From: Sporichthyaceae bacterium
GTDB lineage: Bacteria; Actinomycetota; Actinomycetes; Sporichthyales; Sporichthyaceae
Direction of reading: 5' to 3'
Assembly: GCA_036269075.1 (NCBI GenBank)
Contig: DATASX010000078.1
Span: forward strand, 15,130-79,129
DNA length: 64,000 nucleotides
The notes under the pieces are model-generated. The model worked only from the letters and a program-made list of their open reading frames with translations, was not told where the DNA came from and did no database searches. The position numbers were made by a program, and so were the translations under genes. Below are positions 25,763 to 63,232 of the stretch, one piece after another; position 1 is the stretch's first letter, and the number at the start of each line of letters is the position of its first letter.

Positions 25763-26058
25763 TGACCGCGCTGCGTACGCAGTGGGACCGCACCGGTGCG
25801 ATCGTGGCTGTGATCATCGGTCTGGTCTCGCTGCTGCTGGGCTATCTGGGCGTCAGCGACACCGAGTACATCGTCAAGCAGATGCCGTACATCATCTCCA
25901 ACGGGTTGTTCGGCCTGTTCATGCTCGGCATCGGCACGGCCTTGTGGCTCTCGGCCGACCTGCGCGACGAATGGCGTGAACTGCGTGCGCTGCGCATCGC
26001 CGTCAACGAGCACGGCATCGCGGCCCGGACCGATGACGAGGGCACCGCGAGCCGATGA
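25753..26058 (+). CDS. module A protein 2: conserved 2-TM miniprotein (unknown family)
   Basis: 101 aa. LRTQWDR...GLVSLLLG (TM1), PY..SNGL.G.F.LG (TM2), SADLRDEWRELR. It overlaps the protein 1 stop within ATGGAAGTGATGA. Paralog at 57415. Confidence 0.75.
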   Translation: MEVMTALRTQWDRTGAIVAVIIGLVSLLLGYLGVSDTEYIVKQMPYIISNGLFGLFMLGIGTALWLSADLRDEWRELRALRIAVNEHGIAARTDDEGTASR

Positions 26059-26591
26059 CGACCGCTGTGCGCGAACCGCGCGTGCGCCGCGCCGCAACCC
26101 GAACCGGGGGCCCACGGGTGCCGGCCTACGTGACGGCGTCGAAACGGCGCTCCCGGGGCGAGGTGGTGCTCGGCGATCGCCCGTGGGGTCGCCGCGACCG
26201 GGACATCGCGATCGGCGGGAGCGTGCTCGGCCTGGCCGGGCTCGCGGTGTGCAGTTGGGGCGGCGCCGGTGAGGTCGACCTGGCAACCCAGATGCGTTGG
26301 CTGCTCGGGGGAATCGGCGCCGTCGTGGTCTCCGCCCTCTGCCTGGTCCACTGGCTGTTGGCGGGCTTGCGGACCGTGCGGATCGAGATGGCCCGGGTGT
26401 TCAGCACGATCACGCCGAACCGATCTGTGGTGGGTGCCGCGGCGACCGGCGGCCGGGTCGTGACCGTGGCCGGCATGGTGCGCTTCCACCGACCCGAGTG
26501 CCCGCTCGTGGCGGGCAAGGCGATCCGCGTGCTCGACCCGGCCGACGCTGCCGCCGAGGGGTTGCGTCCCTGCGGAGCGTGCGAGTCATGA
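26055..26591 (+). CDS. module A protein 3: 2-TM membrane protein with C-terminal Ada-like H/C3 metal-binding motif (unknown family)
   Basis: 178 aa. Arg-rich N-terminus, two TM segments, C-terminus VRFHRPECPLVAGKAIRVLDPADAAAEGLRPCGACES. ATGA overlaps on both sides. Paralog at 57725. Confidence 0.75.
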   Translation: MTTAVREPRVRRAATRTGGPRVPAYVTASKRRSRGEVVLGDRPWGRRDRDIAIGGSVLGLAGLAVCSWGGAGEVDLATQMRWLLGGIGAVVVSALCLVHWLLAGLRTVRIEMARVFSTITPNRSVVGAAATGGRVVTVAGMVRFHRPECPLVAGKAIRVLDPADAAAEGLRPCGACES

Positions 26592-28543
26592 ACGCCTACA
26601 TCCCCTTCATCGTCACGGGATTGATCGTCGGGTCGATCTACGGCCTGTCCGCGATGGGCCTGGTACTGACCTACAAGACCTCCGGGTTGTTCAACCTCGG
26701 CCACGGCGCGATCTGCGCTGCCGCCGCATTCGTCTTCTACGAACTGCGCCAGGTGCACGGCGTCCCGTGGGCAGTGGCAGCCGTTGTCACGGTCGTTGTC
26801 TTCGGCGCCGCGACCGGCCTGGTGCTGGAACGCCTCGCCGGTGCGCTGTCCGGGGTGACCACCACGTACAAGATCGTCGCCACCGTCGGTCTGCTGGTTG
26901 CCGTCCGCTCGATCGTGATCCTGATCTGGGGATCCGAGCAGCTCACCTTCGAGCCGTTCCTGCCACAGGGCAAGGCATTCGGGGTCTCCAACGTCTCGGT
27001 CAGCTGGGACAACGTCATCGACATGGCCCTCGGGGTCGCCGCGGCTCTCGGCCTGTCGGTCTTCTTCCGAACCTCTCGGCTGGGCGTCGCGATGCGTGGC
27101 GTCGTCGACAACCCGGCGCTGCTCGACATGGCAGGCACCGCGCCGGCGAAGGTGCGCCGGACCGCATGGATCATCGGCTCGATGTTCGCGGCCGTCTCCG
27201 GTGTGCTGTTCGCCTCGGTGACTTTCCAACTCGACGTGAACGTGCTCTCGCTGCTGGTCGTCCAGGCGTTCGGGGCCGCGGCGATCGGGCGGTTCACCTC
27301 GATCCCGATGGCCTTCGTCGGCGGCCTGACCGTCGGCCTGGTGCAGAAGTTGGTGTCCAAGGAGTTCGCCGGGGAAGTGGTGCTGCGCGGCATCGATCTG
27401 AACGTGCCGTTCATCATCCTGTTCATCGCGATGCTGGTGACTCCCAAGAGTCGCCTGCAGGAGATCGGGCGCAAGGTGAAGGATCGGGCGCCGACTGCCG
27501 GCTCGTTCAGCGTCAGGACCCGCGGCGCCGGCTACGCCGTCCTGCTGGGCGCCGCGCTACTCGTGCCACACCTGGTCGGCACTCGACTCTCGCTCTACAG
27601 CACCGGGCTGACCCAGGTGATCCTCTTCCTCTCCCTCGGCCTGCTGGTGCGGACCTCCGGACAGATTTCCTTGTGCCACGTGGGTTTCGCCGCGGTCGGT
27701 GCCGCCGCCTTCGGACACATGCTGCACGACGGCCTGCCCTGGGGCGTCGCACTGTTGCTCGGCGGCCTGTTCGCTGTCCCGGTCGGGGCGTTCATCGCGA
27801 TCCCCGCGATCCGCCTGTCCGGGCTGTTCCTCGGCCTGGCCACTCTCGGGTTCGGGATCCTGCTCGCGCAGTACGCCTACGGGCAGAGCTGGATGTTCGG
27901 GTTCGGTCGGCTGGACACCCGGCGCCCACACTTCGGCGGCCTGGACTCCGACACGCGTTACTACTACTTCGTGCTCGCCGTCGCGCTGGCCTGCGTCGTC
28001 GCCGTCGTGCTGGTGGAACGCTCCCGGCTCGGCCGACTGCTGCGCGGCCTGGCCGACTCACCGGCGGCGCTGACCTCGCTCGGGACCAACCTGAACATGA
28101 TCCGGGTGATGGTGTTCTGTCTGTCGGCGTTCCTGGCCGGGATCAGCGGGGCGATGTACGCCTCACTGTTCGGCAGCGTCAATCAGGACAGCTTCAACTA
28201 TCTGCAGTCGCTGGTTCTGCTCGCGGTACTGGCCATCTCCGGTCGCGGCACGGTGACCAGCGCGGTGCTCGGCGCCCTGTTGCTCTACGTGCTGCCCGGC
28301 TACATCGACAACCCGGACCACCTCTCGTTGCTGCAGGTCGGCTTCGGCCTGGCCGCGATCCTCGCCGCCGCGCTGTCGCAGGGCCAGTTCGCCGAGGTAG
28401 TCGGACGGGTCGCCGCGGCCGGACGACAACGAACGCTCAGCCCCTGGCGCGACCGCATGGACCCGGTGCACCAGTTGCCCCCCGAACTGCTCGTCAGCTC
28501 CGCGACCCACGAGCCTTTGCTGACCACTGGAGTACATCGATGA
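26588..28543 (+). CDS. fused LivH/LivM-type branched-chain-amino-acid-family ABC permease
   Basis: ATG 26588 (MNAYIPFIVTGLIVGSIYGLSAMGLVLTYKTSGLFNLGHGA is a LivH-like N-terminus). The second half is LivM-like (GQISLCHVGFAAVGAA..., IRLSGLFLGLATLGFG). 651 aa in a single polypeptide. Confidence 0.9.
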   Translation: MNAYIPFIVTGLIVGSIYGLSAMGLVLTYKTSGLFNLGHGAICAAAAFVFYELRQVHGVPWAVAAVVTVVVFGAATGLVLERLAGALSGVTTTYKIVATVGLLVAVRSIVILIWGSEQLTFEPFLPQGKAFGVSNVSVSWDNVIDMALGVAAALGLSVFFRTSRLGVAMRGVVDNPALLDMAGTAPAKVRRTAWIIGSMFAAVSGVLFASVTFQLDVNVLSLLVVQAFGAAAIGRFTSIPMAFVGGLTVGLVQKLVSKEFAGEVVLRGIDLNVPFIILFIAMLVTPKSRLQEIGRKVKDRAPTAGSFSVRTRGAGYAVLLGAALLVPHLVGTRLSLYSTGLTQVILFLSLGLLVRTSGQISLCHVGFAAVGAAAFGHMLHDGLPWGVALLLGGLFAVPVGAFIAIPAIRLSGLFLGLATLGFGILLAQYAYGQSWMFGFGRLDTRRPHFGGLDSDTRYYYFVLAVALACVVAVVLVERSRLGRLLRGLADSPAALTSLGTNLNMIRVMVFCLSAFLAGISGAMYASLFGSVNQDSFNYLQSLVLLAVLAISGRGTVTSAVLGALLLYVLPGYIDNPDHLSLLQVGFGLAAILAAALSQGQFAEVVGRVAAAGRQRTLSPWRDRMDPVHQLPPELLVSSATHEPLLTTGVHR

Positions 28544-30069
28544 GAACCCGTAACGGCACGGCGGTCGCGCTGGTCGCCACGAGCGCATTGCTCCTGACCG
28601 GATGCGGCAACCGCGTCTCGGAGGCCCGCATCGAGGCCGCCAACTCCGCCGTCATGAAGCTCAGTGACCAGCAGCTCAAGGACGCCGGGATCAACCCCGC
28701 CACGGCGCCGCAAACCACCGACAGTGCCGAGACCACAGCCACTGCGACCAACTCGGCCGCCGTGGCCACTGCCGCGGCGGCGCCGGTTCGCGCCGGCGCC
28801 CCGGTCACGGCAGGCGCGGCAGCCGGCGGGGTCCCCGCGGCGGCCGGGACCGGCAGCACGGCCGCCACCGTCGCCGCGGCGGGCGCGCCCAAGGCCCATA
28901 CCGTCGGCGCGGCGCTCACCACCGCGTCGGGTGCCTGCACGAGTTCGCTGCCGCCGGTGTTGCTCGGCCAGACTGGCGTGTTCAGCGGGTTCATCGGCGC
29001 CGTGGGCGCAGGCGCCCGGCCCGGGCTGCAGGTCTGGGCCAAGGACCTCAACTCCCGTGGTGGGCTGGCCTGCCACCCCGTCGAACTGATGCAGCTCGAC
29101 GACCAGTCCGACCCGGCCAAGGTCACCGCGAACGTGCTGGACCTGGTCCAGAACAAGAAGGTCGCGGCGCTGATCGACGCCTACGTCCCGATCACCGTCG
29201 GCCCGTACCGGGAAGCCGCCGCGAAGTTCAAGATGCCCACCATCGGTGGGGACAACATCGACCTGGACTGGAACAAGGATCCCTACCTGTTCCCGGTCGG
29301 GGCCTCGCCACTGGGCACCTACCTGGGCAGCATCAAGTCCGCCGCGGAGTCCGGACACTTCAAGAAGTTCGGCATCCTCTACTGCGTCGAGGCCACGATC
29401 TGCGGCGTCCTCAAGGAGTCGACGACCTCCAAGGGTGGGTTGGCCGACCAGGCCGGTGTGCAGACCGTCTACAGCGCGCCGTTCTCCTTGACGCAGCCGG
29501 ACTTCACCTCCGAGTGCCAGAACATGAAGAACGCCGGCGTGCAGTTCGCGTTCGTGGGCGGCGACGGCTCGGCGGTGTCCCGGGTGGCCCGCGCGTGCAA
29601 CAGCCTCGGCTTCAACCCGACCCTGAGCACGGTGAGCCTGGCTGCCGGATCGGCTGTCCAGAGTGACAAGTTGGTGGCCGGCGACGGGCTCTACCTCGGT
29701 TCGTTCCTCGCCCCGTTCCCGGCCGACGACACCCCTGGCCTGAAGGAGTACCACGCCGCGTTCGAGCGCTACGCGCCGACGCTCACCCTCGACGGCGCCT
29801 CGATGATCGCCTGGTGCTCCGGCAAGTTGCTGGAGGCGGCGGTGAACACTCTCGGAGCCCAGGCGCGCTCCGGCCCGCTGACCACGGCTCTGATCATGAA
29901 GGGCCTGGGCAACATCAACGGCGAGACACTCAACGGTCTCAGCCCGCCGATGACGTTCAAACCGGGTCAGCAGTTCGCGCCGGCCATCAACTGCTACGCC
30001 GTGATCGCCCTCACCGCCCGCGACGTCAAGTTCCGGGCGCCCGAGGGCACGAAGTTCCACTGCCAGTGA
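28540..30069 (+). CDS. lipoprotein substrate-binding protein (Leu/Ile/Val-type fold) with long low-complexity linker
   Basis: ATG 28540 overlaps the permease stop (ATGA). Lipobox LLLTGC. An Ala/Thr/Gly/Pro linker of about 110 aa precedes the SBP domain. Confidence 0.85.
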   Translation: MRTRNGTAVALVATSALLLTGCGNRVSEARIEAANSAVMKLSDQQLKDAGINPATAPQTTDSAETTATATNSAAVATAAAAPVRAGAPVTAGAAAGGVPAAAGTGSTAATVAAAGAPKAHTVGAALTTASGACTSSLPPVLLGQTGVFSGFIGAVGAGARPGLQVWAKDLNSRGGLACHPVELMQLDDQSDPAKVTANVLDLVQNKKVAALIDAYVPITVGPYREAAAKFKMPTIGGDNIDLDWNKDPYLFPVGASPLGTYLGSIKSAAESGHFKKFGILYCVEATICGVLKESTTSKGGLADQAGVQTVYSAPFSLTQPDFTSECQNMKNAGVQFAFVGGDGSAVSRVARACNSLGFNPTLSTVSLAAGSAVQSDKLVAGDGLYLGSFLAPFPADDTPGLKEYHAAFERYAPTLTLDGASMIAWCSGKLLEAAVNTLGAQARSGPLTTALIMKGLGNINGETLNGLSPPMTFKPGQQFAPAINCYAVIALTARDVKFRAPEGTKFHCQ

Positions 30070-30079
30070 CGGGTCGTCA

Positions 30080-30907
30080 GTGATGAGCGCGCAAACGAGA
30101 TCGAGCGACGTGGACGGCTTGGCCGTCGAGAAGCTGACGGTCCGCTTCGGCGGTCTGACGGCGGTCGACGGGCAGACGCTGACCGCTCCGCGCGGCCGGA
30201 TCACCGGGCTCATCGGGCCCAACGGTGCCGGTAAGACCACGACGTTCAATGCCTGCACGGGCGTGGTCCGGCCCAGTGCCGGTCGGGTTTCCCTGTTCGG
30301 TCAGGACATCACCACCTGGTCGCCGGACGCCCGGGCACGCAACGGCATGGGCCGAACCTTCCAACGGATGGAACTGTTCGACACCCTCACCGTGCGGGAG
30401 AACGTCCGGCTCGGCAAGGAGGCCGGTCTGGCGGGCAGCAATCCTTGGCGGGCGTTGCGATCCAGCCGTGCGCAGGCCGCGGCCGTCCGTCGCCTGGCCG
30501 ACGACGCGATGGACATGGTGGGAATCGGCGATGCGGCCAACCGGCGCCCGGCCGATCTGAGCACCGGCGCGCGCCGGTTGGTCGAACTGGCCCGCTGCAT
30601 CGCGGGCGGTTTCACGGTGATGCTGCTCGACGAACCCTCCTCGGGCCTGGACGGGACCGAGACCGAACAGTTCGGCGGGGTGCTGCGTCGCCTGGTGGCC
30701 GAGCGCAACGTGGCGATCCTGATCGTGGAGCACGACATGGAGTTGGTCATGACCACGTGCAACTACATCCACGTCCTGGACTTCGGCAGGCCGATCTTCG
30801 AGGGCACGGCGCGCGAGGTCGCGTGCTCCCCGTTGGTACGCGCCGCCTATCTGGGTACGGAGGCCGACGGCCTGGACGAACTCGCCGGCACCGGGGCGGT
30901 CGGCTGA
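30080..30907 (+). CDS. ABC transporter ATP-binding protein, LivG-like
   Basis: 275 aa. Walker A GPNGAGKTT, signature LSTGARRLVELAR, Walker B MLLDEPSSGL. Confidence 0.9.
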   Translation: MMSAQTRSSDVDGLAVEKLTVRFGGLTAVDGQTLTAPRGRITGLIGPNGAGKTTTFNACTGVVRPSAGRVSLFGQDITTWSPDARARNGMGRTFQRMELFDTLTVRENVRLGKEAGLAGSNPWRALRSSRAQAAAVRRLADDAMDMVGIGDAANRRPADLSTGARRLVELARCIAGGFTVMLLDEPSSGLDGTETEQFGGVLRRLVAERNVAILIVEHDMELVMTTCNYIHVLDFGRPIFEGTAREVACSPLVRAAYLGTEADGLDELAGTGAVG

Positions 30908-31605
30908 TGCTGAGGCTGGACTCGATCCGTGCCGGTTACGCCGGTTCCACCGTGCTGCGCGGCGTCAGTCTGCTGGTGCCCCCGTCCAGCGTGGTCGCGT
31001 TGTTGGGTCCGAACGGGGCCGGCAAGACCACGTTGCTGCGGGTGGCCTCGGGCCTGCTGCGTCCGACCTCCGGCCAGGTCCTGCTCGACGGCCGGGACGT
31101 CAGCCGGTACGCCCCGCACAAGTTGGTCGAGCGCGGGGTCTGCCACGTGCCGGAGGGCCGCGGCGTGTTCCCGTCGCTCTCGGTGCGGGAGAACCTGATC
31201 CTGCATTCCAGACCCGGCACGGAATCCGAGTCGGTGGAGAAAGCGGTGTCGGCGTTCCCGCGGCTGGGGGAGCGGCTTTCCCAACAAGCGGGCACGATGA
31301 GCGGCGGCGAGCAGCAGATGCTCGCGCTGGCGCGGGCGTATGTGCAGAACCCCCGCTTCGTGCTGCTCGACGAGGTCTCGATGGGCCTGGCCCCGAAGAT
31401 CGTCGACGAGATCTTCGACTTCCTTCGGCTGCTGGCTTCGCAGGGCGCCTCCTTGCTGCTCGTCGAGCAGTACGTGACCCGCGCGCTGGAGGCCGCCGAC
31501 TACGTCTACCTGCTCGGCCGGGGAACCGTGACCTTCTCCGGCGAGCCGGGAGAACTCGACGCCGACGCGTTGGCCGAGCAGTACATCGCGGCCGCCCACA
31601 CCTGA
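30907..31605 (+). CDS. ABC transporter ATP-binding protein, LivF-like
   Basis: ATG 30907 overlaps the LivG-like stop. Walker A GPNGAGKTT, VPEGRGVFPSLSVRENL, signature MSGGEQQMLALAR, Walker B VLLDEVSMGL. Confidence 0.9.
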   Translation: MLRLDSIRAGYAGSTVLRGVSLLVPPSSVVALLGPNGAGKTTLLRVASGLLRPTSGQVLLDGRDVSRYAPHKLVERGVCHVPEGRGVFPSLSVRENLILHSRPGTESESVEKAVSAFPRLGERLSQQAGTMSGGEQQMLALARAYVQNPRFVLLDEVSMGLAPKIVDEIFDFLRLLASQGASLLLVEQYVTRALEAADYVYLLGRGTVTFSGEPGELDADALAEQYIAAAHT

Positions 31606-38332: not shown

Positions 38333-38334
38333 GG

Positions 38335-44662: not shown

Positions 44663-44694
44663 CCGGCGATCACCGACCCCGGACCGGCGGCCGG

Positions 44695-53465: not shown

Positions 53466-54326
53466 TCAACAAGGCGAAGTGACGCCCGCCGCGGACACCA
53501 GGACGTCAGCCTCGCGCGGGCCGGGCAACTCCGCCCCGGTCTGGACGTCGCTGCGGGTCACGGCCAACCGGCAGACCAGCACGAGGACGAGCAGCGCACA
53601 GCAGGCGGCGGTCCGGCCGTCGCCGAAGTTGAGGCCGCCGCCGTTGTGCGGCTTGCTGATCCAGTCGGAGAAGGAGGCGCCGAGCGGCCGCGTGACCACG
53701 TAGGACATCCAGAACGCCGGCACGCTGTCCAGGCCGAAGCGCCGCCAGGCCAGCGCCGGAAGCACGATCAGTAGGGCGAAGAGCACGCCGGAGGTCAGGA
53801 AGCCCAGTTTCATCGAGGCCGCGGTCAGGTCGCCCAGCGCGGTGCCGAGGGCGAAGGTGGAGAACACCGTGGCCCAGTACCAACACTCGCGCCGGCGGGT
53901 CGTGATGCTGTGCACGGACAACGTGCCCTCGCTGCGGCGCCACGACCGGAACACCACTGCCAGGACCACTGCCCACAGCAACGTGGTTCCCGCGTAGGGG
54001 ATGCCGATGTCGACGTGCAGGAAGTCGGCCATGCCGGTCCCGATCACCGCGATGGCGTAGGCGAGCAACCAGTACGCGGCAGCCCGGTAGCGACGGGTGG
54101 CGAACTGCGCCACCAGACCGAGCGCGAGCAGCAGCACCTCGATGCCGACCCCGATGACGTTGCCGTAGGTGCCCAGCCAGTCCGAGGTGACCTCGCCACC
54201 CGCGGTGGTCAGGATCTTCACCACCCAGAAGACCGCCAGCACCGCGGGCACCTTGGCCGCGATCGGTTGGCCGAACATCCGAGTTGCGCCTGTGCCCCTG
54301 TCCATCGGTTCGCTCCAGCGACTCAC
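53466..54326 (-). CDS. membrane protein, COG4705-like (repeated 'membrane-anchored' family)
   Basis: 286 aa. KVPAVLAVFWVVKILTTAGGEVTSDWL and a second repeat WYWATVFSTFALGTALGDL. About 8 TM segments. Confidence 0.65.
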   Translation of the reverse strand: MSRWSEPMDRGTGATRMFGQPIAAKVPAVLAVFWVVKILTTAGGEVTSDWLGTYGNVIGVGIEVLLLALGLVAQFATRRYRAAAYWLLAYAIAVIGTGMADFLHVDIGIPYAGTTLLWAVVLAVVFRSWRRSEGTLSVHSITTRRRECWYWATVFSTFALGTALGDLTAASMKLGFLTSGVLFALLIVLPALAWRRFGLDSVPAFWMSYVVTRPLGASFSDWISKPHNGGGLNFGDGRTAACCALLVLVLVCRLAVTRSDVQTGAELPGPREADVLVSAAGVTSPC

Positions 54327-54432
54327 GGCGGGCGCCCCCCGATGCCCGCGTCCGGATCAACCTTGGATCTTGTTCCTTTGCGTCGGCTTGGGGCCTGCTG
54401 CGACGATCCTTCGACCCGACCCGGAGGACCCG

Positions 54433-55975: not shown

Positions 55976-57424
55976 ATGTCGCGCTCAAGACGTCGGCGAT
56001 CGCCGGTCGCGAAATGGCTCGGTTCCGGGTTGGCCGCGGCCGCGGTGGTCGGGACGGGCACGTTGGTGTGGAGCCCGCCGGCAAGTGCCGATGCCGGCTC
56101 CTTCTACGAAGCGAGTGCGCGCTCCGCGGTGGCCGACGGGTACTTCACGAACTCGACCATTCCCGGTGGCGTGAAGCCCGAGGGTGGTGGCCCGGAGACC
56201 GACGTGGCGCAGTCCTCGCTGAGCAAGGGCGACGCGAACGCCTCGTTCCCGTACTTCGGCGACTATGTGCCGACCGCCCCGGGCGTCGTGTCCGGCCTGT
56301 TCGGCTTCCCGGTACCCCCCTATCCGCTGACCGCGTCGTCGACATTCGGCAGCGAACCGGGCAAGGCGAATTACCCGGGCATCGAGCTCAGCGCGGTGAG
56401 CCGGGCAAATTCGACGGTGGCCGACGGTGTGTTCGGCTCGGCGGGATCCGGCGCGGTGTCTCACTCAGAGGTTGATCAGACTGCCGACAACCAGATCACG
56501 GCCTCGGCCGTCGCGTCCTCGCCGTTGACCAACCTCGGCCCGTTGGTCAGCGTCAAGGGCCTGGAATCGACGGTCTCGGTGCTGGCGGACGCGACTGGTG
56601 CGTTGACCCGGACCTCGAATTTCTCCATCGACGAAATCTCCGTACCGGGTCTGGTGCTGCGCATTCCGGAGCGGACACCGGGATCGGTCCCGCTGCCCTT
56701 CCCGGTCCCCGTGCCAGGGGTGCCGGCTCCGCAGCCGATTCCGTTGCAGCCCTTCCCGATACCCAACGGCGGCACGACGCTGGTCGAGCCCAGGATCGGA
56801 TTCATCAACGGCTATTTCGTGGTGACGCAGCCGTTCGGCGCGGACTCGCGCAAGTACGTGGTACCCGCGGACGCGGTCGTGCAAGCGTTCAAGGCGCAAG
56901 GCGTCGCGCTGAACTACACAGCTGCGGCGCTCACCAAGAACGGCATCACCGGTGGCGTTTTCGCGATCAACTACACCTTCGCCGCTCCTCCGGACAACCC
57001 GTTCTACAAGGGCCCGACGCCGACCACATTCATCCTCGGAGCCACCTCGGCCTCGGTGCAGCGGGCGGCGCAAGCCGGCGCGGTAGTGGCAGCGGGGACA
57101 TCCGGCAATTCGGCCGTCCCGGGCGTGCTGCCCGGCGGGCCGTTGGCGCAGGCACCGGACGTGGCCAACGTCGTTGGGCCGGCGACCGCGCCCGCGGTCG
57201 GCCCGGTGCCCACGACTGTCGGTGGGATTCCTACGGTGAACTTCCAGCCGCAGCATCCCGGGGTCGTGTCACACATCAGATCCACGCTGATGGCGGCGGG
57301 CCTGCCCGCCTTCGCGGCCAGTGATTTCTCCGGCCTCTACCTGGCGCTGGTTGGTCTGGCCGGCCTCGGCCTGGTGGCCGTGACGGTTGTCGTCGCTAAG
57401 GGAGTGTCGGCGCGATGGAACTGA
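55976..57424 (+). CDS. module B protein 1: secreted, C-terminally anchored envelope protein (paralog of 24323..25762)
   Basis: 482 aa. MSRSRRRRSPVAKW... signal ending PPASA|DA. Shared blocks ASFPY.GD, APG..SGLFG, ANYPGI.L, VPG...RIP..TPG.VPLP.PVP, A.PP.NP.Y.G. Pro/Ala stalk and C-terminal TM. Confidence 0.8.
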   Translation: MSRSRRRRSPVAKWLGSGLAAAAVVGTGTLVWSPPASADAGSFYEASARSAVADGYFTNSTIPGGVKPEGGGPETDVAQSSLSKGDANASFPYFGDYVPTAPGVVSGLFGFPVPPYPLTASSTFGSEPGKANYPGIELSAVSRANSTVADGVFGSAGSGAVSHSEVDQTADNQITASAVASSPLTNLGPLVSVKGLESTVSVLADATGALTRTSNFSIDEISVPGLVLRIPERTPGSVPLPFPVPVPGVPAPQPIPLQPFPIPNGGTTLVEPRIGFINGYFVVTQPFGADSRKYVVPADAVVQAFKAQGVALNYTAAALTKNGITGGVFAINYTFAAPPDNPFYKGPTPTTFILGATSASVQRAAQAGAVVAAGTSGNSAVPGVLPGGPLAQAPDVANVVGPATAPAVGPVPTTVGGIPTVNFQPQHPGVVSHIRSTLMAAGLPAFAASDFSGLYLALVGLAGLGLVAVTVVVAKGVSARWN

Positions 57425-57738
57425 TGAACTTGCTCCGCACCCAGTGGGACCGGGCGATGGCCATCCTTTGCGCCATCGGCGGGTTGGTGTCCCTGCTCCT
57501 CGGATGGATCGGCACCAGCGGCACGGCGCACGTCGCGGCTCAACTGCCCTACCTCGTCTCCAACGGGCTGACCGGCATCTTCCTGCTCGGTGTCGCGGCG
57601 GTGCTGTGGATCAGCGCAGACCTGCGGGACGAGTGGCGTGAGCTGCGCCGCGTCGGCACCCTGCTCGACCGCGAACTGAGCGAGCGTCACAACGGTCGCC
57701 TCGCCGAGCAGGCGTCGGGCTCTCATGCCCGCGCTTGA
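57415..57738 (+). CDS. module B protein 2: conserved 2-TM miniprotein
   Basis: 107 aa. LRTQWDRAMAILCAIGGLVSLLLG...PYLVSNGLTGIFLLG...SADLRDEWRELR. It has the same ATGGAAsTGATGA overlap junction as copy A. Confidence 0.8.
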   Translation: MELMNLLRTQWDRAMAILCAIGGLVSLLLGWIGTSGTAHVAAQLPYLVSNGLTGIFLLGVAAVLWISADLRDEWRELRRVGTLLDRELSERHNGRLAEQASGSHARA

Positions 57739-58324
57739 GACGAGGACGGCTGATCTGACACGCACCGCGGACAAGCGCCGCCCGCCCGAGCCCAGTGCCA
57801 CCGGCCCGGTGAACCCGCGGCGGCGTCGGCGTTATCTCCGCGAGCCGCGGCCCTGGCGTAGCTCCGACCTGCGGCGTGCCCTCGCGCTGCTGCTGGTCGG
57901 CGCGGCCGTCTCGGTCTGGGGTTGGTTCGAGGTCAGCGGCAAGGTTCGGTTGCGCGACCAGCAGGGCTGGGCGGCGTTGGCCTACCTCGGCGCGGCGATC
58001 GCGGCATGTGGCGGGGTCTACCTGGTGACCGTCTCGATGCGTGAGGTCCGCCTCGGCCAACGCCAACTGATGTTCGACCTCGCCGATGTCATGGGATGGA
58101 ACGTCTCCGTCATCCAACGCGGCCGGCTCCGGTTGCACGCCGGCGACGAGTCGGGCGCGGCGCTCGCCGAGCACACCGACGCCGGCGTCCTGGTCACCGG
58201 CCCCGGGATGACCTTCGTGCACCGTGCCGAATGCCCGATCACCCGTGGCAAGGCCGTTTCCGGAATCAGCGCAGCGGATGCTGCGGCGCGAAGCCTCGCT
58301 CCGTGTGGGGTGTGCCGGCCGTGA
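57725..58324 (+). CDS. module B protein 3: 2-TM membrane protein with Ada-like H/C3 motif
   Basis: 199 aa. Arg-rich N-terminus, 2 TM segments, C-terminus MTFVHRAECPITRGKAVSGISAADAAARSLAPCGVCRP. Its stop overlaps the permease GTG (GTGA). Confidence 0.8.
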   Translation: MPALETRTADLTRTADKRRPPEPSATGPVNPRRRRRYLREPRPWRSSDLRRALALLLVGAAVSVWGWFEVSGKVRLRDQQGWAALAYLGAAIAACGGVYLVTVSMREVRLGQRQLMFDLADVMGWNVSVIQRGRLRLHAGDESGAALAEHTDAGVLVTGPGMTFVHRAECPITRGKAVSGISAADAAARSLAPCGVCRP

Positions 58325-60273
58325 AGGAATACCTCCCTTATCTGATCTTCGGCGTCGTCACCGGTGCCATCTACGGCATCTGCGCCATGGGTCTGGTGCT
58401 GACGTACAAGACCTCCGGTGTCTTCAACTTCGGGCACGGCGCGGTGTGCGCGCTGTCCGCCTACGCATTCTTCGACCTGCGTCAGCAGCAGGGGATCGCC
58501 TGGCCGGTGGCCGCGATCCTCGTGGTGTTCGTGATGGGTCCGATCGTCGGCCTGTTGATGGAGCGACTGGCCGCCGGGCTGGCCCCGGTGTCCACGGCGT
58601 ACAAGATCGTCGGCACGGTCGGTCTGCTCGTGTTCATCCAGGCGCTGATCGTGCTGCGCTACAGCGGGCAGGGCCGCCGCTTCGACTACTTCCTCCCGCA
58701 GAACCGGGCTTTCTCCGTCCAGGGCGTCAGCGTCACCGTCGATTCGTGCATCACCGTCGGCATCGGTGCCGCCGCTGCCGTCGGGCTGTTCCTGTTCTTC
58801 CGTTACACCCGGCTCGGCACCGCGATCCGCGGCGTGGTCGACGACCCGCAACTGCTCGACATGACGGGTGAATCGCCGACCAAGGTCCGCCGCACCGCGT
58901 GGATCATCGGCTCGATCTTCGCGTCGGCCTCGGGCATTCTCTTCGCCTCCACGCAGCAGCAGGTCGACGTCAATGTGTTGTCGATCCTCATCGTGCAGGC
59001 CTTCGGTGCGGCGACCATCGCCCTGTTCCGCAACCTGCCGATGTGCTTCGTCGGTGGGGTCATCGTCGCTCTCGCGCAAAAGTTGGTCTCGAAGGATCTC
59101 TCGTCCGGGCACGAACAACTGGCCGGCCTGGACCTCACGATCCCCTTCATCGTGTTGTTCGGCGGCCTGCTCGTGATCCCGCGGAAGTACCTGGTGGAGG
59201 TCGGCCGCCAGGTGAAGCCACGTGCGGCCAAGGCAAGTCGGCTCGCCCTGCGCGACCGACGGATTCTCATGGCCGTCATGGTCGGGGTTGCGCTCTCCAT
59301 CCCCGCGTTCTCCGGTACCCACCAGATCGCGTGGAACGTCGCGCTGACCCAGGTCGCGTTGTTCATGTCGCTGCACCTGCTGGTGCGCGTCTCGGGTCAG
59401 ATCTCGTTGGGTCAGATCGGGTTTGCCGCGATCGGCGCCTCGACGTTCGCGCACATGCTCAGCCACGGCCTGCCGTTCCTGCTCGCGCTGCTGATCGCCG
59501 GTCTGGTGTGTGTGCCGGTCTCCCTGGTGATTGCGGTTCCCGCGATCCGGCTGTCGGGTCTCTACCTCGGTCTGGCGACATTGGGCTTCGGCATCGTGCT
59601 GAACCAGTTCTTCTACGCGAAGAAGTACATGTTCGGCTTCGGCAGCGTGGAGACTCAGCGGCCCAGCTTCTGGGACATGGACCGAAGCGACACGCACTAC
59701 TACTACCTGCTGATGGCGATCGCGTTGGCCTCGGTCTGTCTCGTGCTCTGGATCGAGAGGTCCCGGCTGGGTCGCCTGCTCCGCGGGATGGCCGACGCCC
59801 CCGTGGCACTGTCGACGCTCGGGCTCGCGGTCAACGTCTCGCGGACCCTCGTGTTCTGCGTCGCAGGGTTCCTCGCCGGCATCAGCGGCGCACTGTATGC
59901 GTCGATGTTCGGCTCGGTCAGTGCGGAGAGCTACTTCTTCGTGCAATCGCTGATCGTGCTCGCCGTCCTCGCGATCTCCGGGCGCCGCACCTTCGTGTGC
60001 GCCATGGTCGCGCCGGTCCTGCTCTACGTCGTGCCGAACTACATCACCAACCCGAACTTCTTCGAGTGTCTGCAGATGTTCTTCGGCCTTGCCGCGATCG
60101 CTGCCGCGGTCGGCTCGCAGGGCGCCTTCGAGCGCTGGTTTGCAGCGACTGCAGCCCGCTATACATCCCGTCGCGTCGGTCCGGCCTCCGTCCGGGTCGA
60201 GGACTATCTCGAGCAGAAGGCCGGGGGCGCCGTGGCTGCCCTCGACCGCGAGCCGGTTGGAGCTTCCCGATGA
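58321..60273 (+). CDS. fused LivH/LivM-type ABC permease (paralog of 26588..28543)
   Basis: GTG 58321 (VKEYLPYLIFGVVTGAIYGICAMGLVLTYKTSGVFNFGHGA). The second half carries GQISLGQIGFAAIGAS and IRLSGLYLGLATLGFG. Confidence 0.9.
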   Translation: MKEYLPYLIFGVVTGAIYGICAMGLVLTYKTSGVFNFGHGAVCALSAYAFFDLRQQQGIAWPVAAILVVFVMGPIVGLLMERLAAGLAPVSTAYKIVGTVGLLVFIQALIVLRYSGQGRRFDYFLPQNRAFSVQGVSVTVDSCITVGIGAAAAVGLFLFFRYTRLGTAIRGVVDDPQLLDMTGESPTKVRRTAWIIGSIFASASGILFASTQQQVDVNVLSILIVQAFGAATIALFRNLPMCFVGGVIVALAQKLVSKDLSSGHEQLAGLDLTIPFIVLFGGLLVIPRKYLVEVGRQVKPRAAKASRLALRDRRILMAVMVGVALSIPAFSGTHQIAWNVALTQVALFMSLHLLVRVSGQISLGQIGFAAIGASTFAHMLSHGLPFLLALLIAGLVCVPVSLVIAVPAIRLSGLYLGLATLGFGIVLNQFFYAKKYMFGFGSVETQRPSFWDMDRSDTHYYYLLMAIALASVCLVLWIERSRLGRLLRGMADAPVALSTLGLAVNVSRTLVFCVAGFLAGISGALYASMFGSVSAESYFFVQSLIVLAVLAISGRRTFVCAMVAPVLLYVVPNYITNPNFFECLQMFFGLAAIAAAVGSQGAFERWFAATAARYTSRRVGPASVRVEDYLEQKAGGAVAALDREPVGASR

Positions 60274-61850
60274 CCAGCAACCCCCGCACGGGCGCAATGC
60301 CGCGCCGCATCGCTGCGGTCGCAGGCCTGATGGCCCTCGTGATTCCGCTGTCGGCCTGCGGCACCCGGGAGTCGAGCGACCAGATCGCGGCGGCCGATGG
60401 CTCCGCCATTCATCAGGTCGCGGCGGCGGACAGCGGGGCGACGGCGGGTACGAACACCGGCGCTCCGACCGGCGCCACCACGGACACCGGCGCGGTGGCC
60501 GCAGCGCCCGTTGCGGCCACCGGTGGCACGGCCGCCGCGCCCGCTGCCGGCGCGGCCACAACGACCACGCAGGCCGTGAGCGCCAAGGGCCCGACCGCCG
60601 GCGGAACGACTACGGCCGGCGGTACGACCGCCGGTACCAAGGCAAGCAGCGCGAAGAGCAGTGCCGCCGTCTCGACCGGCGGCGCAACCGTCCCGACCGG
60701 GGCGGATGCCCCCTGCACGAAAGCGCTCGGCCCGGTGGTGATCGGGCAGACCTCGCCGTCCTCGGGCATCATCGGCGCCTCGACATTCAACATGCGGGCG
60801 GGCCTCGCGCTGTGGGCTCGGGCCATCAACGCTGCGGGCGGCGTGCAGTGCCACCCGGTGCAGCTGTACCAGATGGACGACGCCGCCGACCCCGCCCGCG
60901 TCACGTCCAACCTCGATGACCTGGTGAACAACAAGCATGCGATCGCGATTGTCGGCGCCGGGGTGCCCACCACCTTCGCCGCGGCGAAGCGGTTCGCCGA
61001 GCAGAACAAGGTGCCCTTCGTGGGCGGGGACATGATCGAGGCCGGCTGGTTCTCCAGCCCGTGGATCTTCCCCCAGGGCGGCGGTCCGCTGGCGGCCTAC
61101 GCCGGTGCAACGAAGGAAGCGGCGGAGAAGGCCGGCACCAAGAAGGTGGGCCTGATCTACTGCGTCGAGGCCGCGATCTGCGGCACCATCAACGAGAACT
61201 TCGAGGCGATGGCCAAGGCCTCGGGCCTCGAGGTGGTGCTGCGCAAGGTCTCCTCGATCACCTCGCCGGACTACACCGCCGAGTGCCAAGCGCTCAAGGC
61301 CGCCGGTGCCCAGGCAGTTTTCGTGGCGCTGGAGGGATCGGGTGACGCCCGCTTCGCCCGCTCGTGCCTCTCGCTGGGTTACGCACCGCCCGCGGCCACC
61401 TCAGCCCTGTCGGTGAGTGCCGAGGCCGCGCTCGACCCGAACTTCCGCAAGCTGGGAGTCTTCCTCGGCACCGGCAACGCGCCCTATCAGGCCGACGACA
61501 CCCCAGGGGGCCGGTTGTTCACGGCGGCCTACGACACGTTCGCGCCGGGCTCGTCCATCGACCAGAACACCATCAGCCAGTGGACCTCGGGCAAGCTGTT
61601 CGAAAAGGCCGTCGCGAACGTCTTCCAGGAGGCGCGCAGCGGCCCGATCACCCGGGAAATGGTGTTGGAGGGTCTCTGGAAGATGAAGAACGAGAAGCTC
61701 AACGGACTCACGCCGGGCGTCACGTTCAACGAGAACGCGCCGCCCAAACAGAACGACTGCTACGCGCTGCTCAACCTGACGCCCACGGGCTACACCGCGC
61801 CCAAGGGCTCGAAGTTCGACTGCTTCGCCGGCCTGCCCAAAGGCTTCTAG
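60270..61850 (+). CDS. lipoprotein substrate-binding protein with long low-complexity linker (paralog of 28540..30069)
   Basis: ATG 60270 overlaps the permease stop (ATGA). Lipobox PLSAC. An Ala/Thr/Gly linker of about 120 aa precedes the SBP domain. Confidence 0.85.
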   Translation: MTSNPRTGAMPRRIAAVAGLMALVIPLSACGTRESSDQIAAADGSAIHQVAAADSGATAGTNTGAPTGATTDTGAVAAAPVAATGGTAAAPAAGAATTTTQAVSAKGPTAGGTTTAGGTTAGTKASSAKSSAAVSTGGATVPTGADAPCTKALGPVVIGQTSPSSGIIGASTFNMRAGLALWARAINAAGGVQCHPVQLYQMDDAADPARVTSNLDDLVNNKHAIAIVGAGVPTTFAAAKRFAEQNKVPFVGGDMIEAGWFSSPWIFPQGGGPLAAYAGATKEAAEKAGTKKVGLIYCVEAAICGTINENFEAMAKASGLEVVLRKVSSITSPDYTAECQALKAAGAQAVFVALEGSGDARFARSCLSLGYAPPAATSALSVSAEAALDPNFRKLGVFLGTGNAPYQADDTPGGRLFTAAYDTFAPGSSIDQNTISQWTSGKLFEKAVANVFQEARSGPITREMVLEGLWKMKNEKLNGLTPGVTFNENAPPKQNDCYALLNLTPTGYTAPKGSKFDCFAGLPKGF

Positions 61851-62531
61851 GTGTCAGCGGCACCGGTGGAAACCCCCACGCCCCGTCAGATAAGACGGCC
61901 GTCGGCGGTCATCCGGGATCTGTTGCTCAACAGCGCGCGACAGTTGTTCGCGGCCAAGGGCTACGCCGGTGCCAGCACACGGCAGATCGCGGAAGAGGCC
62001 GGGGTGCGGGAAGCACTGATCTTCCGGCACTTCGGCAACAAAGCAGGCCTGTTCCGGGCTGCTGTGATCGACCCGTTCCGCGCCATCATCGAAGGTTTCG
62101 TGGACGACTGGGAGGCCGGCCACGAGTCCAACACCATGAGCACCCATGAGATCACCGGCGCCTGGATCACCTCGCTGCACGCGCTGATGCGGCAGCACCG
62201 TGAGTTGGTCATCGCACTGATCACGGCGAACGACTTCGACGAGGAGACCGAGCCCGGCACCCTGCCGATCACCGACGCCTTCGCCGGGCCGATCCGGCGG
62301 CTGGAGAAATTCACCCGTCGGGAGATGGCCGGCCGCGGGTTGGCCACCGATCCCGTCATCGGGGTGCGTGCCACCTTCGGGATGGTGCTGGCCATGGCTG
62401 TGCTCGACGACTGGTTCTTCGCCGGGGTGGCGCGACGCCCCGGCACCGAGGCGGTGACCCGGGAGATGACCGACATGATCGTCTTCGGCATCGCGGGGAA
62501 GACAGTCGCTCACTCCGGAGGGCGGGGTTGA
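61851..62531 (+). CDS. TetR-family transcriptional regulator embedded in the module B operon
   Basis: GTG 61851 lies immediately after the SBP stop. LLNSARQLFAAKGYAGASTRQIAEEAGVREALIFRHFGNKAGLF. Confidence 0.85.
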   Translation: MSAAPVETPTPRQIRRPSAVIRDLLLNSARQLFAAKGYAGASTRQIAEEAGVREALIFRHFGNKAGLFRAAVIDPFRAIIEGFVDDWEAGHESNTMSTHEITGAWITSLHALMRQHRELVIALITANDFDEETEPGTLPITDAFAGPIRRLEKFTRREMAGRGLATDPVIGVRATFGMVLAMAVLDDWFFAGVARRPGTEAVTREMTDMIVFGIAGKTVAHSGGRG

Positions 62532-63232
62532 TGTTCGAACTCAAGGGCGTCCACGCGGGCTACGCGGGCACGACCGTACTGCGCGGCGTCGACCTGGTGG
62601 TGCCCGACGGTGCGGTCGTCGCCCTGCTCGGCGCCAACGGTGCGGGCAAGACCACCCTGCTGCGCTGTGCCTCCGGGCTCATTCACGCCACCGAGGGCTC
62701 CATGAGCCTCGACGGCGAGGACGTCACCCGCAAGGCCCCGCACCAGTTGGTGAAGCGTGGCATCTGCCACGTGCCCGAGGGCCGCGGTATTTTCCCCAGC
62801 CTGACGGTGCGGGACAACTTGGTGCTGCAATCCCCGCGGGGCAAGGAAAACGAATCGATCGAGAAGGCCTGCTCGGCGTTCAAACGCCTGGGCGAGCGAC
62901 TGAATCAGCCCTGCGGCACCATGTCCGGCGGCGAGCAGCAGATGGTCGCCCTGGCCCGTACCTATGTGCAGAACCCCAAGGTCGCCCTGCTCGACGAGGT
63001 CTCCATGGGCCTGGCTCCGAAGATCGTTGACGAGATCTTCGAGTTCCTCGGCCTTCTGCGCGACCAGGGATCCAGCCTGTTGCTGGTCGAGCAGTACGTG
63101 ACGCGCGCGCTGGACGTCGCCGACTACGTGTACCTGCTCAACAAGGGTGAGGTCGTTTTCGTGGGCCAGCCCAGTGAGTTGGACGAGGCTGACGTCTTCA
63201 ACCAGTACGTGGGCGCCGACATCGGCCACTGA
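62531..63232 (+). CDS. ABC transporter ATP-binding protein, LivF-like (paralog of 30907..31605)
   Basis: The ATG overlaps the TetR stop by 1 nt (TGATG). Walker A GANGAGKTT, VPEGRGIFPSLTVRDNL, MSGGEQQMVALAR, ALLDEVSMGL. Confidence 0.9.
   Translation: MFELKGVHAGYAGTTVLRGVDLVVPDGAVVALLGANGAGKTTLLRCASGLIHATEGSMSLDGEDVTRKAPHQLVKRGICHVPEGRGIFPSLTVRDNLVLQSPRGKENESIEKACSAFKRLGERLNQPCGTMSGGEQQMVALARTYVQNPKVALLDEVSMGLAPKIVDEIFEFLGLLRDQGSSLLLVEQYVTRALDVADYVYLLNKGEVVFVGQPSELDEADVFNQYVGADIGH

What the first reader, a model, noticed from the sequence alone, without database searches (positions are those of the whole stretch)
57725..58324. P3b carries the same H-x3-C-x23-C-x2-C motif with identical spacing
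The P3b C-terminus is MTFVHRAECPITRGKAVSGISAADAAARSLAPCGVCRP. The H, the three C residues, the 23-residue spacer, a Gly-Lys after the first Cys and the AADAAA segment are all retained, although the rest of P3 has diverged strongly. The N-terminal tails differ in length and sequence but are Arg-rich in both copies. This pinpoints the C-terminal motif and the 2-TM core as the selected parts.
Basis: seen in the sequence. Interest (0 to 1): 0.7.

Follow-up and report, generated by a model that had tools for sequence, protein, structure and literature searches.

The report
Zinc-finger membrane partner of ABC importer
The motif is real: it is an Ada-type zinc finger (His replacing one Cys) on the cytoplasmic end of a small two-helix membrane protein, which with two other uncharacterised genes always sits directly in front of a Liv-type ABC nutrient importer, suggesting an undescribed accessory module.

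Summary
P3b (57725-58324, +, 199 aa) ends in H-x3-C-x23-C-x2-C. Its paralogue P3a (26055-26591) has the same ligands and spacing at only 31% overall identity. These are the only two such matches in all six frames (0.07 expected).

The ligands are universal in the family: 60/60 complete close homologues, 145/145 distant representatives, and 73/83 P3 genes beside P2 in other genomes. The ten exceptions examined or classifiable are contig ends or frameshifted assemblies. The spacing is not fixed: it ranges from 17 to 24, with 23 the mode.

The module is a divergent ADA_N-like (N-Ada type) zinc finger, with His at the position of Ada's Cys38. It is predicted to be cytoplasmic. The 2-TM hairpin of P3 is homologous to P2 (hhalign 97.8%).

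P1-P2-P3 form a conserved, translationally coupled trio in front of a fused LivH-LivM permease, with a binding protein and ATPases nearby. This arrangement occurs across Actinomycetota and in some Chloroflexota and Dormibacterota MAGs. None of the three proteins reaches the threshold of any Pfam or NCBIfam family, and I found no paper on the trio.

My best reading is that P2 and P3 are accessory membrane subunits of this importer class and that the zinc finger is a structural or regulatory cytoplasmic module. Zinc binding, physical association and function are inferred, not shown.

The parts
57725..58324 (+). P3b, 199 aa. It has an Arg-rich cytoplasmic N-tail (residues 1-49), a 2-TM helical hairpin (about 50-104), a cytoplasmic helix extension (105-125), a low-confidence linker (126-155) and a C-terminal zinc module (156-199).
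   Evidence: ORF and sequence. The start is supported by the conserved N-terminus MPAVET in homologues. AF2 model: helices 46-72 and 76-123, then a beta-beta-beta-alpha C-terminal domain. Charge distribution: K+R averages 7.7 in the N-tail, 1.0 in the loop and 4.2 after TM2.
58220..58315 (+). H166-x3-C170-x23-C194-x2-C197, the putative HCCC zinc site of an ADA_N-like module.
   Evidence: Homology chain to N-Ada.
57415..57738 (+). P2b, 107 aa, a 2-TM hairpin protein with invariant QWDR and (W)ISADLRDEWRE(L) motifs. It overlaps the P1b stop by 10 nt and the P3b start by 14 nt.
   Evidence: The hairpin is homologous to that of P3 (hhalign 97.8%, E 1e-12).
55976..57424 (+). P1b, 482 aa. It has an Arg-rich signal peptide, a large extracytoplasmic part with a Pro-rich linker, and a C-terminal TM anchor. 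It matches no known family.
58321..60273 (+). Fused LivH-LivM-type permease (650 aa). Its GTG start overlaps the P3b stop (GTGA).
   Evidence: By homology to copy a, which hits Pfam BPD_transp_2. Alignment to E. coli LivH 8-300 and LivM 110-390. The overlap is read from the sequence.
60270..61850 (+). Lipoprotein solute-binding protein (Peripla_BP_6) with a long low-complexity tether. Its ATG overlaps the permease stop.
61851..62531 (+). TetR-family regulator downstream of cluster b.
   Evidence: The same position is occupied in L001 and L002.
62528..63232 (+). ABC ATPase (LivF-like) downstream of the TetR gene.
26055..26591 (+). P3a, 178 aa, the paralogue with the same motif (H at 26487, last Cys at 26582).
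25753..26058 (+). P2a, 101 aa.
24323..25762 (+). P1a, 479 aa.
26588..31605 (+). The rest of cluster a: fused permease (26588-28543), binding protein (28540-30069), and two ABC ATPases (30080-30907 and about 30900-31605).

Best explanation
P3b is a small cytoplasmic-membrane protein. Its Arg-rich N-tail and its C-terminus both face the cytoplasm. Two transmembrane helices form a hairpin that is homologous to the hairpin of the upstream protein P2. The second helix continues about 20 residues into the cytoplasm. After a flexible linker the protein ends in a roughly 45-residue ADA_N-like zinc finger, in which His166, Cys170, Cys194 and Cys197 are expected to hold one structural Zn(II). His occupies the position of Ada's Cys38, which I recall as the methyl acceptor, so methyl-transfer chemistry is unlikely.

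P1 (an exported, C-terminally anchored protein), P2 and P3 are made by translational coupling together with a fused LivH-LivM permease. Most likely P2 and P3 pair through their related hairpins and dock onto the permease as accessory subunits of this subclass of HAAT-type ABC importers. That would place the zinc finger at the cytoplasmic face near the ATPases, as a structural or regulatory docking module. The neighbouring catabolic genes suggest the cargo is organic acids or other hydrophobic compounds.

Shown: the motif, its family-wide conservation, the homology links, the gene order and the overlapping stop and start codons. Inferred: the topology (positive-inside rule), zinc binding, physical association with the transporter, and any regulatory role.
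For: Motif and selection. Four of the five invariant columns in 46 diverse sequences are the ligands. The motif is present in 60/60 complete close homologues, in 145/145 listed representatives, and in 73/83 genomic neighbours of P2. The family has 1561 50%-identity clusters at E<=1e-3.

Identity of the module.
- The P3 C-terminus aligns to tandem-repeat proteins P0261/P0319 at 98.2%, E 6e-14.
- P0261 passes Pfam's thresholds for Ada_Zn_binding (54.5 bits against 23) and DUF6233 (42.7 against 27.6).
- Those repeats align to E. coli Ada 1-92 at 88.6%.
- P3 aligns directly to Ada at 44%, with H166/C170/C194/C197 on Cys38/42/69/72.
- The only Foldseek PDB hit of the domain model is N-Ada 1u8b.
- P3b has a sub-threshold DUF6233 hit.
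- ADA_N-like domains at the C-termini of Gram-positive membrane proteins have been described (PMC12353581).

Topology. P2/P3 hairpin homology.

Link to the transporter.
- The order P2, P3, permease holds in nearly all of 80 loci from many taxa.
- The P3 stop overlaps the permease start by 4 nt in 56/77 loci.
- Pairwise-identity matrices correlate: P3-permease 0.79, P2-P3 0.75.
Against: - There is no experimental or structural evidence for zinc binding or for a P2-P3-permease complex.
- Gene linkage and coupling also fit an assembly factor or a regulator.
- P3b itself does not reach any Pfam threshold. The direct hhalign to Ada is only 44%, and the Foldseek hit is not significant on its own (E 1.9, TM 0.41).
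- P3 is the fastest-evolving member of the unit (mean identity 0.29, against 0.47 for the permease), which is unusual for a tightly packed core subunit.
- In L022, P2-P3 lie 4 kb from the permease rather than abutting it.
- The ten P3 genes without an intact motif were only partly inspected. L005 was read directly and is a frameshifted assembly. The rest were classed as contig ends or fragmented ORFs from their coordinates.
Confidence: 0.5

Rival explanations
1. P3 is a membrane-tethered nucleic-acid-binding regulator, in the style of ToxR or CadC. The N-Ada-like finger and the Arg-rich tail would bind DNA (or mRNA) at the membrane and control expression of the transporter operon, with P1 and P2 acting as sensing partners.
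For: The closest characterised relative of the module, N-Ada, binds the DNA backbone (1u8b is the only structural hit). The N-tail carries 13 Arg in 50 residues. An invariant Lys follows the first Cys.
Against: P3 has no HTH or other sequence-specific DNA-binding domain, whereas Ada needs its adjacent HTH (PMC12353581). Dedicated regulators (TetR, AraC, PucR types) sit beside the clusters. The 4-nt stop/start overlap with the permease in 56/77 loci points to stoichiometric co-production. ADA_N-like domains also occur in secreted and ribosomal proteins, so DNA binding is not a given. The poly-Arg tail is not conserved outside Sporichthyaceae.
Confidence: 0.12
2. P1-P2-P3 are biogenesis or assembly factors and not part of the working machine. 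For example, they could insert or stabilise the permease, or position the long-tethered lipoprotein binding protein in the cell envelope. The zinc finger would be a purely structural cap.
For: The same synteny and coupling as above. P1 and the binding protein both carry long low-complexity tethers. P3 evolves faster than the permease.
Against: Nothing in the computations separates this from a stable subunit. The extreme conservation of the P2 cytoplasmic motifs (QWDR, ADLRDEWRE) suggests a persistent specific interface.
Confidence: 0.2
3. The HCCC site is a thiol or zinc redox switch, as in zinc-containing anti-sigma factors or Hsp33. It would gate uptake in response to oxidative stress or zinc status.
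For: His plus three Cys on a cytoplasmic domain, with the ligands absolutely conserved. The comparison with ZAS and Hsp33 switches rests on my own knowledge.
Against: The ligand order and spacing differ from the ZAS H-x3-C-x2-C motif. No sigma factor is nearby. No data bear on redox behaviour. This is a sub-case of the best explanation rather than an alternative to it.
Confidence: 0.08
4. The shared motif is only residual similarity between two recent paralogues and has no functional meaning.
For: The two copies are paralogues, so some shared residues are expected.
Against: The ligands are invariant in hundreds of sequences down to about 25% identity, while the rest of the protein diverges. 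P3b has only 4 Cys in all, and 3 of them are in the motif.
Confidence: 0.02

Closest known systems
N-terminal zinc domain of E. coli Ada (N-Ada; Pfam Ada_Zn_binding PF02805; PDB 1adn, 1eyf, 1u8b)
   Same: Same ligand pattern: X-x3-C, a spacer of roughly 20-26 residues, then C-x2-C. Same secondary-structure order (strand, loop, strand, helix, CxxC). The consensus ...A..aG..PC..C.P is similar. It is the only structural hit and the best PDB sequence hit of the repeat relatives.
   Different: His replaces Cys38. The spacer is 23 rather than 26. The domain is C-terminal, not N-terminal. There is no adjoining HTH or methyltransferase domain. It is attached to a membrane hairpin. P3b does not reach the Pfam threshold.
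ADA_N-like domains of Gram-positive proteins (ECOD X-group; e.g. M. tuberculosis ArfC, C. difficile ComEC and Cwp27, C. acnes RplD), PMC12353581
   Same: A small Ada-like finger at the C-terminal end of otherwise unrelated proteins, including a small membrane protein. Function is unknown.
   Different: The P3 architecture (2-TM hairpin paralogous to P2, fixed position in an ABC importer operon) is not among the architectures listed in that paper. P3 keeps an intact ligand set, whereas ArfC and RplD have degraded sites. I did not compare P3 directly with those sequences.
Pfam DUF6233 (PF19746)
   Same: This is the best Pfam match of the P3b C-terminus (residues 159-199 against profile 11-54 of 59). 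Two close P3 homologues carry a precomputed PF19746 hit. The repeat relative P0261 passes its threshold.
   Different: P3b scores 22.4 bits, below the 27.6 cut-off. Only 7 of 46 family members hit it even at E<=0.1. The model covers only the finger, not the hairpin.
LivHMGF/J-type (HAAT family) ABC importers
   Same: The adjacent genes are standard components: BPD_transp_2 permease, Peripla_BP_6 binding protein, and two ABC_tran ATPases, one with BCA_ABC_TP_C.
   Different: The permease is a LivH-LivM fusion lacking the N-terminal roughly 100 residues of LivM. Three extra conserved genes precede it. The E. coli liv operon has no counterpart in its annotation.
Small accessory membrane proteins of actinobacterial Mce lipid/steroid importers (Mam/Mas, LucA; from my own knowledge)
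   Same: An analogy only: small membrane proteins encoded with, and needed for, an ABC-type importer of hydrophobic substrates in Actinobacteria. Both occur as multiple paralogous operons per genome.
   Different: No sequence relationship was tested or found, and the transporter family is different.

Membership tests
Ada_Zn_binding (PF02805) / ADA_N-like | Four zinc ligands arranged C-x3-C ... C-x2-C | tested here: inconclusive
   Ligand positions align one to one with Ada Cys38/42/69/72. However, the first ligand is His in all 145 listed distant representatives and in every motif found in the 60 close homologues and 73 genomic neighbours, and the spacer is 17-24 rather than 26.
Ada_Zn_binding (PF02805) / ADA_N-like | Score at or above Pfam's gathering threshold | tested here: not met
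   P3b and P3a have no PF02805 hit at E<=1. The link is only transitive: P0261 scores 54.5 bits, and P3 aligns to the P0261 repeats at 98.2%.
Ada_Zn_binding (PF02805) / ADA_N-like | N-Ada fold (beta-sheet with the CxxC at the start of a short C-terminal helix) | tested here: inconclusive
   The core of the domain model has pLDDT about 90 and the order strand-strand-strand-helix. The sole Foldseek PDB hit is 1u8b_A, but with E 1.9 and TM 0.41.
Ada_Zn_binding (PF02805) / ADA_N-like | Nucleophilic Cys that accepts a methyl group from DNA phosphotriesters (Cys38, from my own knowledge; the ECOD paper names Cys69) | tested here: inconclusive
   His166 aligns with Cys38, so by the Cys38 assignment the acceptor is absent. 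By the paper's Cys69 assignment the equivalent residue (C194) is retained. The chemistry cannot be tested with these tools.
Ada_Zn_binding (PF02805) / ADA_N-like | Actual zinc binding and DNA binding | not testable with these tools
   This needs metal analysis and binding assays.
DUF6233 (PF19746) | Score at or above the gathering threshold of 27.6 bits | tested here: not met
   P3b scores 22.4 bits, E 1.3e-4. Of 46 members, 7 have sub-threshold hits and none reaches the cut-off.
ZAS-type anti-sigma factor zinc motif | Contiguous H-x3-C-x2-C on an anti-sigma domain, with a partner ECF sigma gene adjacent | tested here: not met
   In P3 the C-x2-C is 17-24 residues from the H-x3-C. There is no anti-sigma Pfam hit. 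No sigma gene is listed in the neighbourhoods.
HAAT (Liv-type) ABC importer operon | BPD_transp_2 permease, Peripla_BP_6 binding protein and two ABC ATPases encoded together | tested here: met
   Both window clusters and the related loci. P1, P2 and P3 are not themselves members of any of these component families.
P3 family (defined here) | PW before TM1, a 2-TM hairpin with Q...W at the loop/TM2 border, a C-terminal H-x3-C-x(17-24)-C-x2-C, and a gene position between P2 and the fused permease | tested here: met

The most novel reading that the evidence does not exclude
P1, P2 and P3 are obligatory extra subunits that define a previously unrecognised architecture of Liv-type ABC importers in Actinomycetota, with spill-over into Chloroflexota and Dormibacterota. 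The architecture would comprise an exported, tail-anchored P1 working with the tethered binding protein in the wall zone, a P2/P3 hairpin heterodimer packed against the fused permease, and an Ada-like HCCC zinc finger that couples a cytoplasmic signal (zinc, redox state or ATPase state) to uptake of hydrophobic catabolic substrates. Functionally this would be a counterpart of the accessory-protein-dependent Mce systems.
Probability: 0.3. Interest if true: 0.75.

Novelty: new variant of a known kind. Interest (0 to 1): 0.55.

Why it matters
ABC importers of the Liv/HAAT type are usually described as five-component machines. Here a large, multi-phylum subclass is always encoded with three additional conserved membrane or envelope proteins. 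The subclass has at least 1561 P3 clusters at 50% identity and several paralogous operons per genome in Sporichthyaceae. None of the three proteins reaches the threshold of any Pfam or NCBIfam family.

If these proteins are subunits, structural and mechanistic models of this transporter class in Actinomycetota are incomplete. These operons lie in catabolic gene islands rich in P450, thiolase, enoyl-CoA hydratase and ChsH2-like genes.

The finding also gives the recently defined but functionally blank ADA_N-like zinc-finger group a well-defined genomic setting. The setting has a large family and an intact ligand set, which makes the domain's function experimentally approachable.

Tried and rejected
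1. A fold search with the whole P3b model returned only generic helical hairpins (AhlB, AcrA, ExbB, all E>0.7). I discarded it as uninformative.
2. A profile of nine P3 C-termini against PDB sequences gave only chance hits.
3. I tested whether P2/P3 replace, in trans, the N-terminal roughly 100 residues that the fused permease lacks relative to E. coli LivM. The permease does lack that segment, but P2 shows no similarity to LivM (hhalign 0.4%). The idea is unsupported.
4. P1 has no Pfam, NCBIfam or PDB-sequence match, even with a 5-sequence profile. I could not model it usefully because only window sequences are allowed as input.
6. The search for related loci with A3 failed for lack of a conserved stretch, so I used P2 as the probe instead.
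7. Apparent counter-examples: L005 is a frameshifted long-read assembly that still encodes P3. L022 has P2-P3 4 kb from its permease.
8. Literature searches for DUF6233 and for Ada-like domains combined with ABC-transporter terms found nothing on this system. Only the ECOD paper was relevant.
9. P2 has no plasmid-borne copy in PLSDB.

Full report
**1. The observation**

The ORF at 57725-58324 (+) encodes a 199-aa protein. It ends ...GPGMTFVHRAECPITRGKAVSGISAADAAARSLAPCGVCRP*. Counting gives H166-x3-C170-x23-C194-x2-C197.

A regular-expression scan of all six frames finds this pattern at only one other place, 26487-26582. That is the C-terminus of a 178-aa ORF at 26055-26591, called P3a here...FHRPECPLVAGKAIRVLDPADAAAEGLRPCGACES*. 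In 200 first-order Markov simulations of the window the pattern occurs 0.07 times on average and never more than once.

The two proteins are 31% identical. Both have 13 Arg in their first 50 residues. P3b has only four Cys, three of them in the motif.

**2. Two paralogous gene clusters**

Each P3 lies in the same gene string.
- P1 is about 480 aa, with a signal peptide and a C-terminal TM anchor. The copies are at 24323-25762 and 55976-57424 and are 38% identical.
- P2 is about 100 aa with two TM helices. The copies are at 25753-26058 and 57415-57738 and are 63% identical.
- P3 follows P2.
- Next comes a 650-aa fused permease (BPD_transp_2).
- Then a lipoprotein binding protein (Peripla_BP_6).
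- Then ABC ATPases. In cluster a they follow directly. In cluster b a TetR gene and one ATPase follow.

Adjacent genes overlap by 4-14 nt. The P3b stop and the permease start form GTGA.

The window is 69% G+C. Its close homologues come from Sporichthyaceae, including Sporichthya polymorpha, S. brevicatena and MAGs.

**3. Conservation of the motif**

All 60 complete close homologues carry the motif. The spacer is 23 in 55, 20 in two and 19 in three.

A profile search of 1.84 billion cluster representatives finds 1561 proteins at E<=1e-3 and 595 at E<=1e-10. Nearly all of those listed are 140-210 aa and match across both the hairpin and the C-terminus. All 145 short proteins among the listed hits have H-x3-C-x(17-24)-C-x2-C within a few residues of the C-terminus. 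The first ligand is always His. The spacer is 23 in 92 of them.

In an alignment of 46 diverse members (mean column identity 31%) the only invariant columns are W44, H166, C170, C194 and C197. P43, G59, Q79, W82, V157, G175 and K176 are at least 90% conserved.

So the ligands, the Gly-Lys after the first Cys, and a few hairpin residues are under strong selection. The exact spacing is not.

**4. What the motif is**

P3b has one Pfam hit, sub-threshold, to DUF6233 (22.4 bits; cut-off 27.6; residues 159-199). Two close homologues carry a precomputed DUF6233 hit. Only 7 of 46 family members hit it at E<=0.1, and none reaches the cut-off.

The profile search also pulled out two long proteins, P0261 (899 aa) and P0319 (772 aa). 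Each matches the P3 C-terminal module eight or nine times. Their repeats also have H-x3-C-x23-C-x2-C. P0261 passes Pfam's thresholds for both Ada_Zn_binding (54.5 bits) and DUF6233 (42.7 bits).

The homology chain runs as follows.
- P3 C-termini against these repeats: 98.2% probability, E 6e-14.
- The repeats against E. coli Ada residues 1-92: 88.6%.
- P3 against Ada directly: 44%. This alignment places H166, C170, C194 and C197 on Ada Cys38, Cys42, Cys69 and Cys72, with three extra residues in Ada.
- The best PDB sequence hits of the repeat profile are the N-Ada entries 1adn, 1u8b, 1zgw and 1wpk, at E 0.2-0.4.

An AlphaFold model of the isolated domain has a core pLDDT of about 90 and the order strand-strand-strand-helix. 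It has exactly one Foldseek hit in the PDB, the N-Ada/DNA complex 1u8b (E 1.9, TM 0.41, 52 columns, 23% identity).

No single step is conclusive. They all point the same way: the module is a divergent ADA_N-like zinc finger with His at the Cys38 position.

A 2025 ECOD curation paper defines this wider group. It describes small Ada-like fingers, mostly at C-termini, in Gram-positive proteins including the M. tuberculosis membrane protein ArfC. It states that their function is unknown (PMC12353581).

**5. The rest of P3, and P2**

The full-length model (mean pLDDT 74.5) has two long helices at 46-72 and 76-123, with pLDDT above 90 through the hairpin. A low-confidence linker and the finger follow.

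Across the family, K+R averages 7.7 in the N-tail, 1.0 in the inter-helix loop and 4.2 just after TM2. By the positive-inside rule both ends, and therefore the finger, are cytoplasmic. This is an inference.

The P2 family is more conserved than P3, with invariant QWDR and ADLRDEWR motifs at the two cytoplasmic membrane borders. The P2 hairpin is homologous to the P3 hairpin (hhalign 97.8%, E 1e-12, 78 columns). P3 is therefore a P2-like hairpin that carries an added zinc finger. This suggests, but does not show, that the two proteins pair.

**6. Genomic association**

I used the P2 motif as a probe against one genome per GTDB species. It gave 161 confirmed loci, of which 80 were fetched. They come from Sporichthyaceae, Frankiales, a few Streptomyces, Actinophytocola, Haloechinothrix, other Pseudonocardiaceae, Mycobacteriales MAGs and Acidimicrobiia. 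There are also Chloroflexota and Dormibacterota MAGs, and one MAG labelled Burkholderiales. Several genomes hold six or more loci.

HMM scans of these loci show the order P2, P3, fused permease almost everywhere. P1 lies directly upstream or, in one subgroup, a weak P1-like gene follows the ATPases. A binding protein and two ATPases lie nearby.

Of 83 P2 genes, 73 have an intact P3 with the motif next to them. The rest are at contig ends or in fragmented ORFs. I read L005 directly and it is a frameshifted assembly. L022 has P2-P3 4 kb from its permease.

The permease start overlaps the P3 stop by 4 nt in 56 of 77 loci.

Pairwise-identity matrices of P2, P3 and the permease correlate: 0.75 for P2-P3, 0.79 for P3-permease and 0.67 for P2-permease. 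The partial correlation of P2-P3 given the permease is 0.47. The unit is therefore inherited and duplicated as a whole. Shared phylogeny alone could produce much of this correlation.

The flanking genes differ between loci. Some carry P450, MaoC, enoyl-CoA hydratase and ChsH2-like/thiolase genes. Another carries GCV_T and folate genes. So the trio goes with the transporter architecture and not with one substrate.

**7. Mechanism**

The best-supported reading is that P2 and P3 are accessory membrane subunits of this importer subclass, or at least tightly co-assembled partners. The zinc finger would then sit on the cytoplasmic face. Whether it is purely structural, docks on the ATPases, senses redox or zinc status, or binds nucleic acid cannot be decided from sequence.

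The regulator rival is weakened by three points: P3 has no sequence-specific DNA-binding domain, dedicated regulators lie next door, and P3 is translationally coupled to the permease. The assembly-factor rival cannot be separated from the subunit model without biochemistry.

**8. Comparison with known systems, and novelty**

At the domain level this is a new member of the ADA_N-like group, and of the DUF6233 relatives, with an intact HCCC site. At the system level the transporter parts are ordinary HAAT components. The exceptions are the LivH-LivM fusion, which lacks LivM's N-terminal roughly 100 residues, and the three extra genes. The E. coli liv operon has no counterpart for those genes, and no Pfam or NCBIfam family covers them.

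The literature searches I could run found no description of this trio. That library lacks most subscription-journal papers.

I rate it a new variant of a known kind and of moderate interest. Its meaning is an Ada-like zinc finger on a conserved, uncharacterised ABC-importer accessory protein.

Noticed in passing
P0261 (899 aa) and P0319 (772 aa): These proteins consist of 8-9 tandem copies of the same H-x3-C-x23-C-x2-C module (consensus VWVVDGxPxYHRxGCxxLxGxxxxxIPxxQAxEDGFxPCxxCxP), separated by Ala/Pro-rich linkers. P0319 starts with hydrophobic segments. Their function is unknown, and they bridge P3 to Pfam Ada_Zn_binding and DUF6233.
   Followed up: partly
window 57415-57738 and 25753-26058 (P2b, P2a): The P2 family has a near-invariant cytoplasmic signature (QWDR ... 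W-I/L-S-A-D-L-R-D-E-W-R-E-L) over at least 308 clusters and matches no Pfam or NCBIfam model. Its conservation is far higher than that of P3 or P1 and is unexplained.
   Followed up: partly
window 55976-57424 and 24323-25762 (P1b, P1a): P1 is an exported, tail-anchored protein of about 480 aa with conserved FPYPGD, YPL and NYPGI motifs, a Pro-rich central linker and an Arg-rich (possibly twin-arginine) signal peptide. It has no detectable relatives in Pfam, NCBIfam or PDB sequences.
   Followed up: partly
window 1-23000 and 36000-47000: The window is a catabolic island. It holds three P450s (5194-6558, 8098-9357, 41057-42319), luciferase-like monooxygenases (4151-5248, 19649-21430), a thiolase (13062-14270), an enoyl-CoA hydratase (236-1024), an FMO/BVMO-like flavoprotein (42953-44662), ferredoxin-reductase-like (10004-11290) and SDR (36685-37665) genes, and several TetR regulators.
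   Followed up: no
window ~2970-4112 (within ORF 1527-4112, +): There is a third Peripla_BP_6 binding-protein gene with no P1-P3 or permease next to it, that is, an orphan binding protein.
   Followed up: no
window 48790-52566 (-): A 1258-aa single-polypeptide ABC exporter with two ABC_membrane and two ABC_tran domains.
   Followed up: no
window 53466-54326 (-): A membrane protein with three DUF347 repeats lies just upstream of a fumarylacetoacetase gene (54169-55632). These occupy the place where related genomes (L001) have the two divergent ABC ATPases of cluster b.
   Followed up: no
L005, L019, L039, L041, L081, L084: In these MAG contigs the P3 and permease genes are broken into several frames. 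For L005 I confirmed by reading the ORFs that this is a frameshift. For the others it is inferred from the fragmented HMM hits. Assembly errors are likely, but pseudogenisation is not excluded.
   Followed up: partly
L015, L021, L036, L048, L054, L061, L062, L066, L074: This subgroup of clusters has the order binding protein, P2, P3, permease, two ATPases, then a weak P1-like gene (HMM scores 30-54). P1 has moved to the end of the operon and has diverged strongly.
   Followed up: no
L068 (CAZCVW010000140.1): One P2-P3-permease locus sits in a MAG labelled Burkholderiales, outside the otherwise Gram-positive and Chloroflexota-type range. This could be a binning error or horizontal transfer.
   Followed up: no
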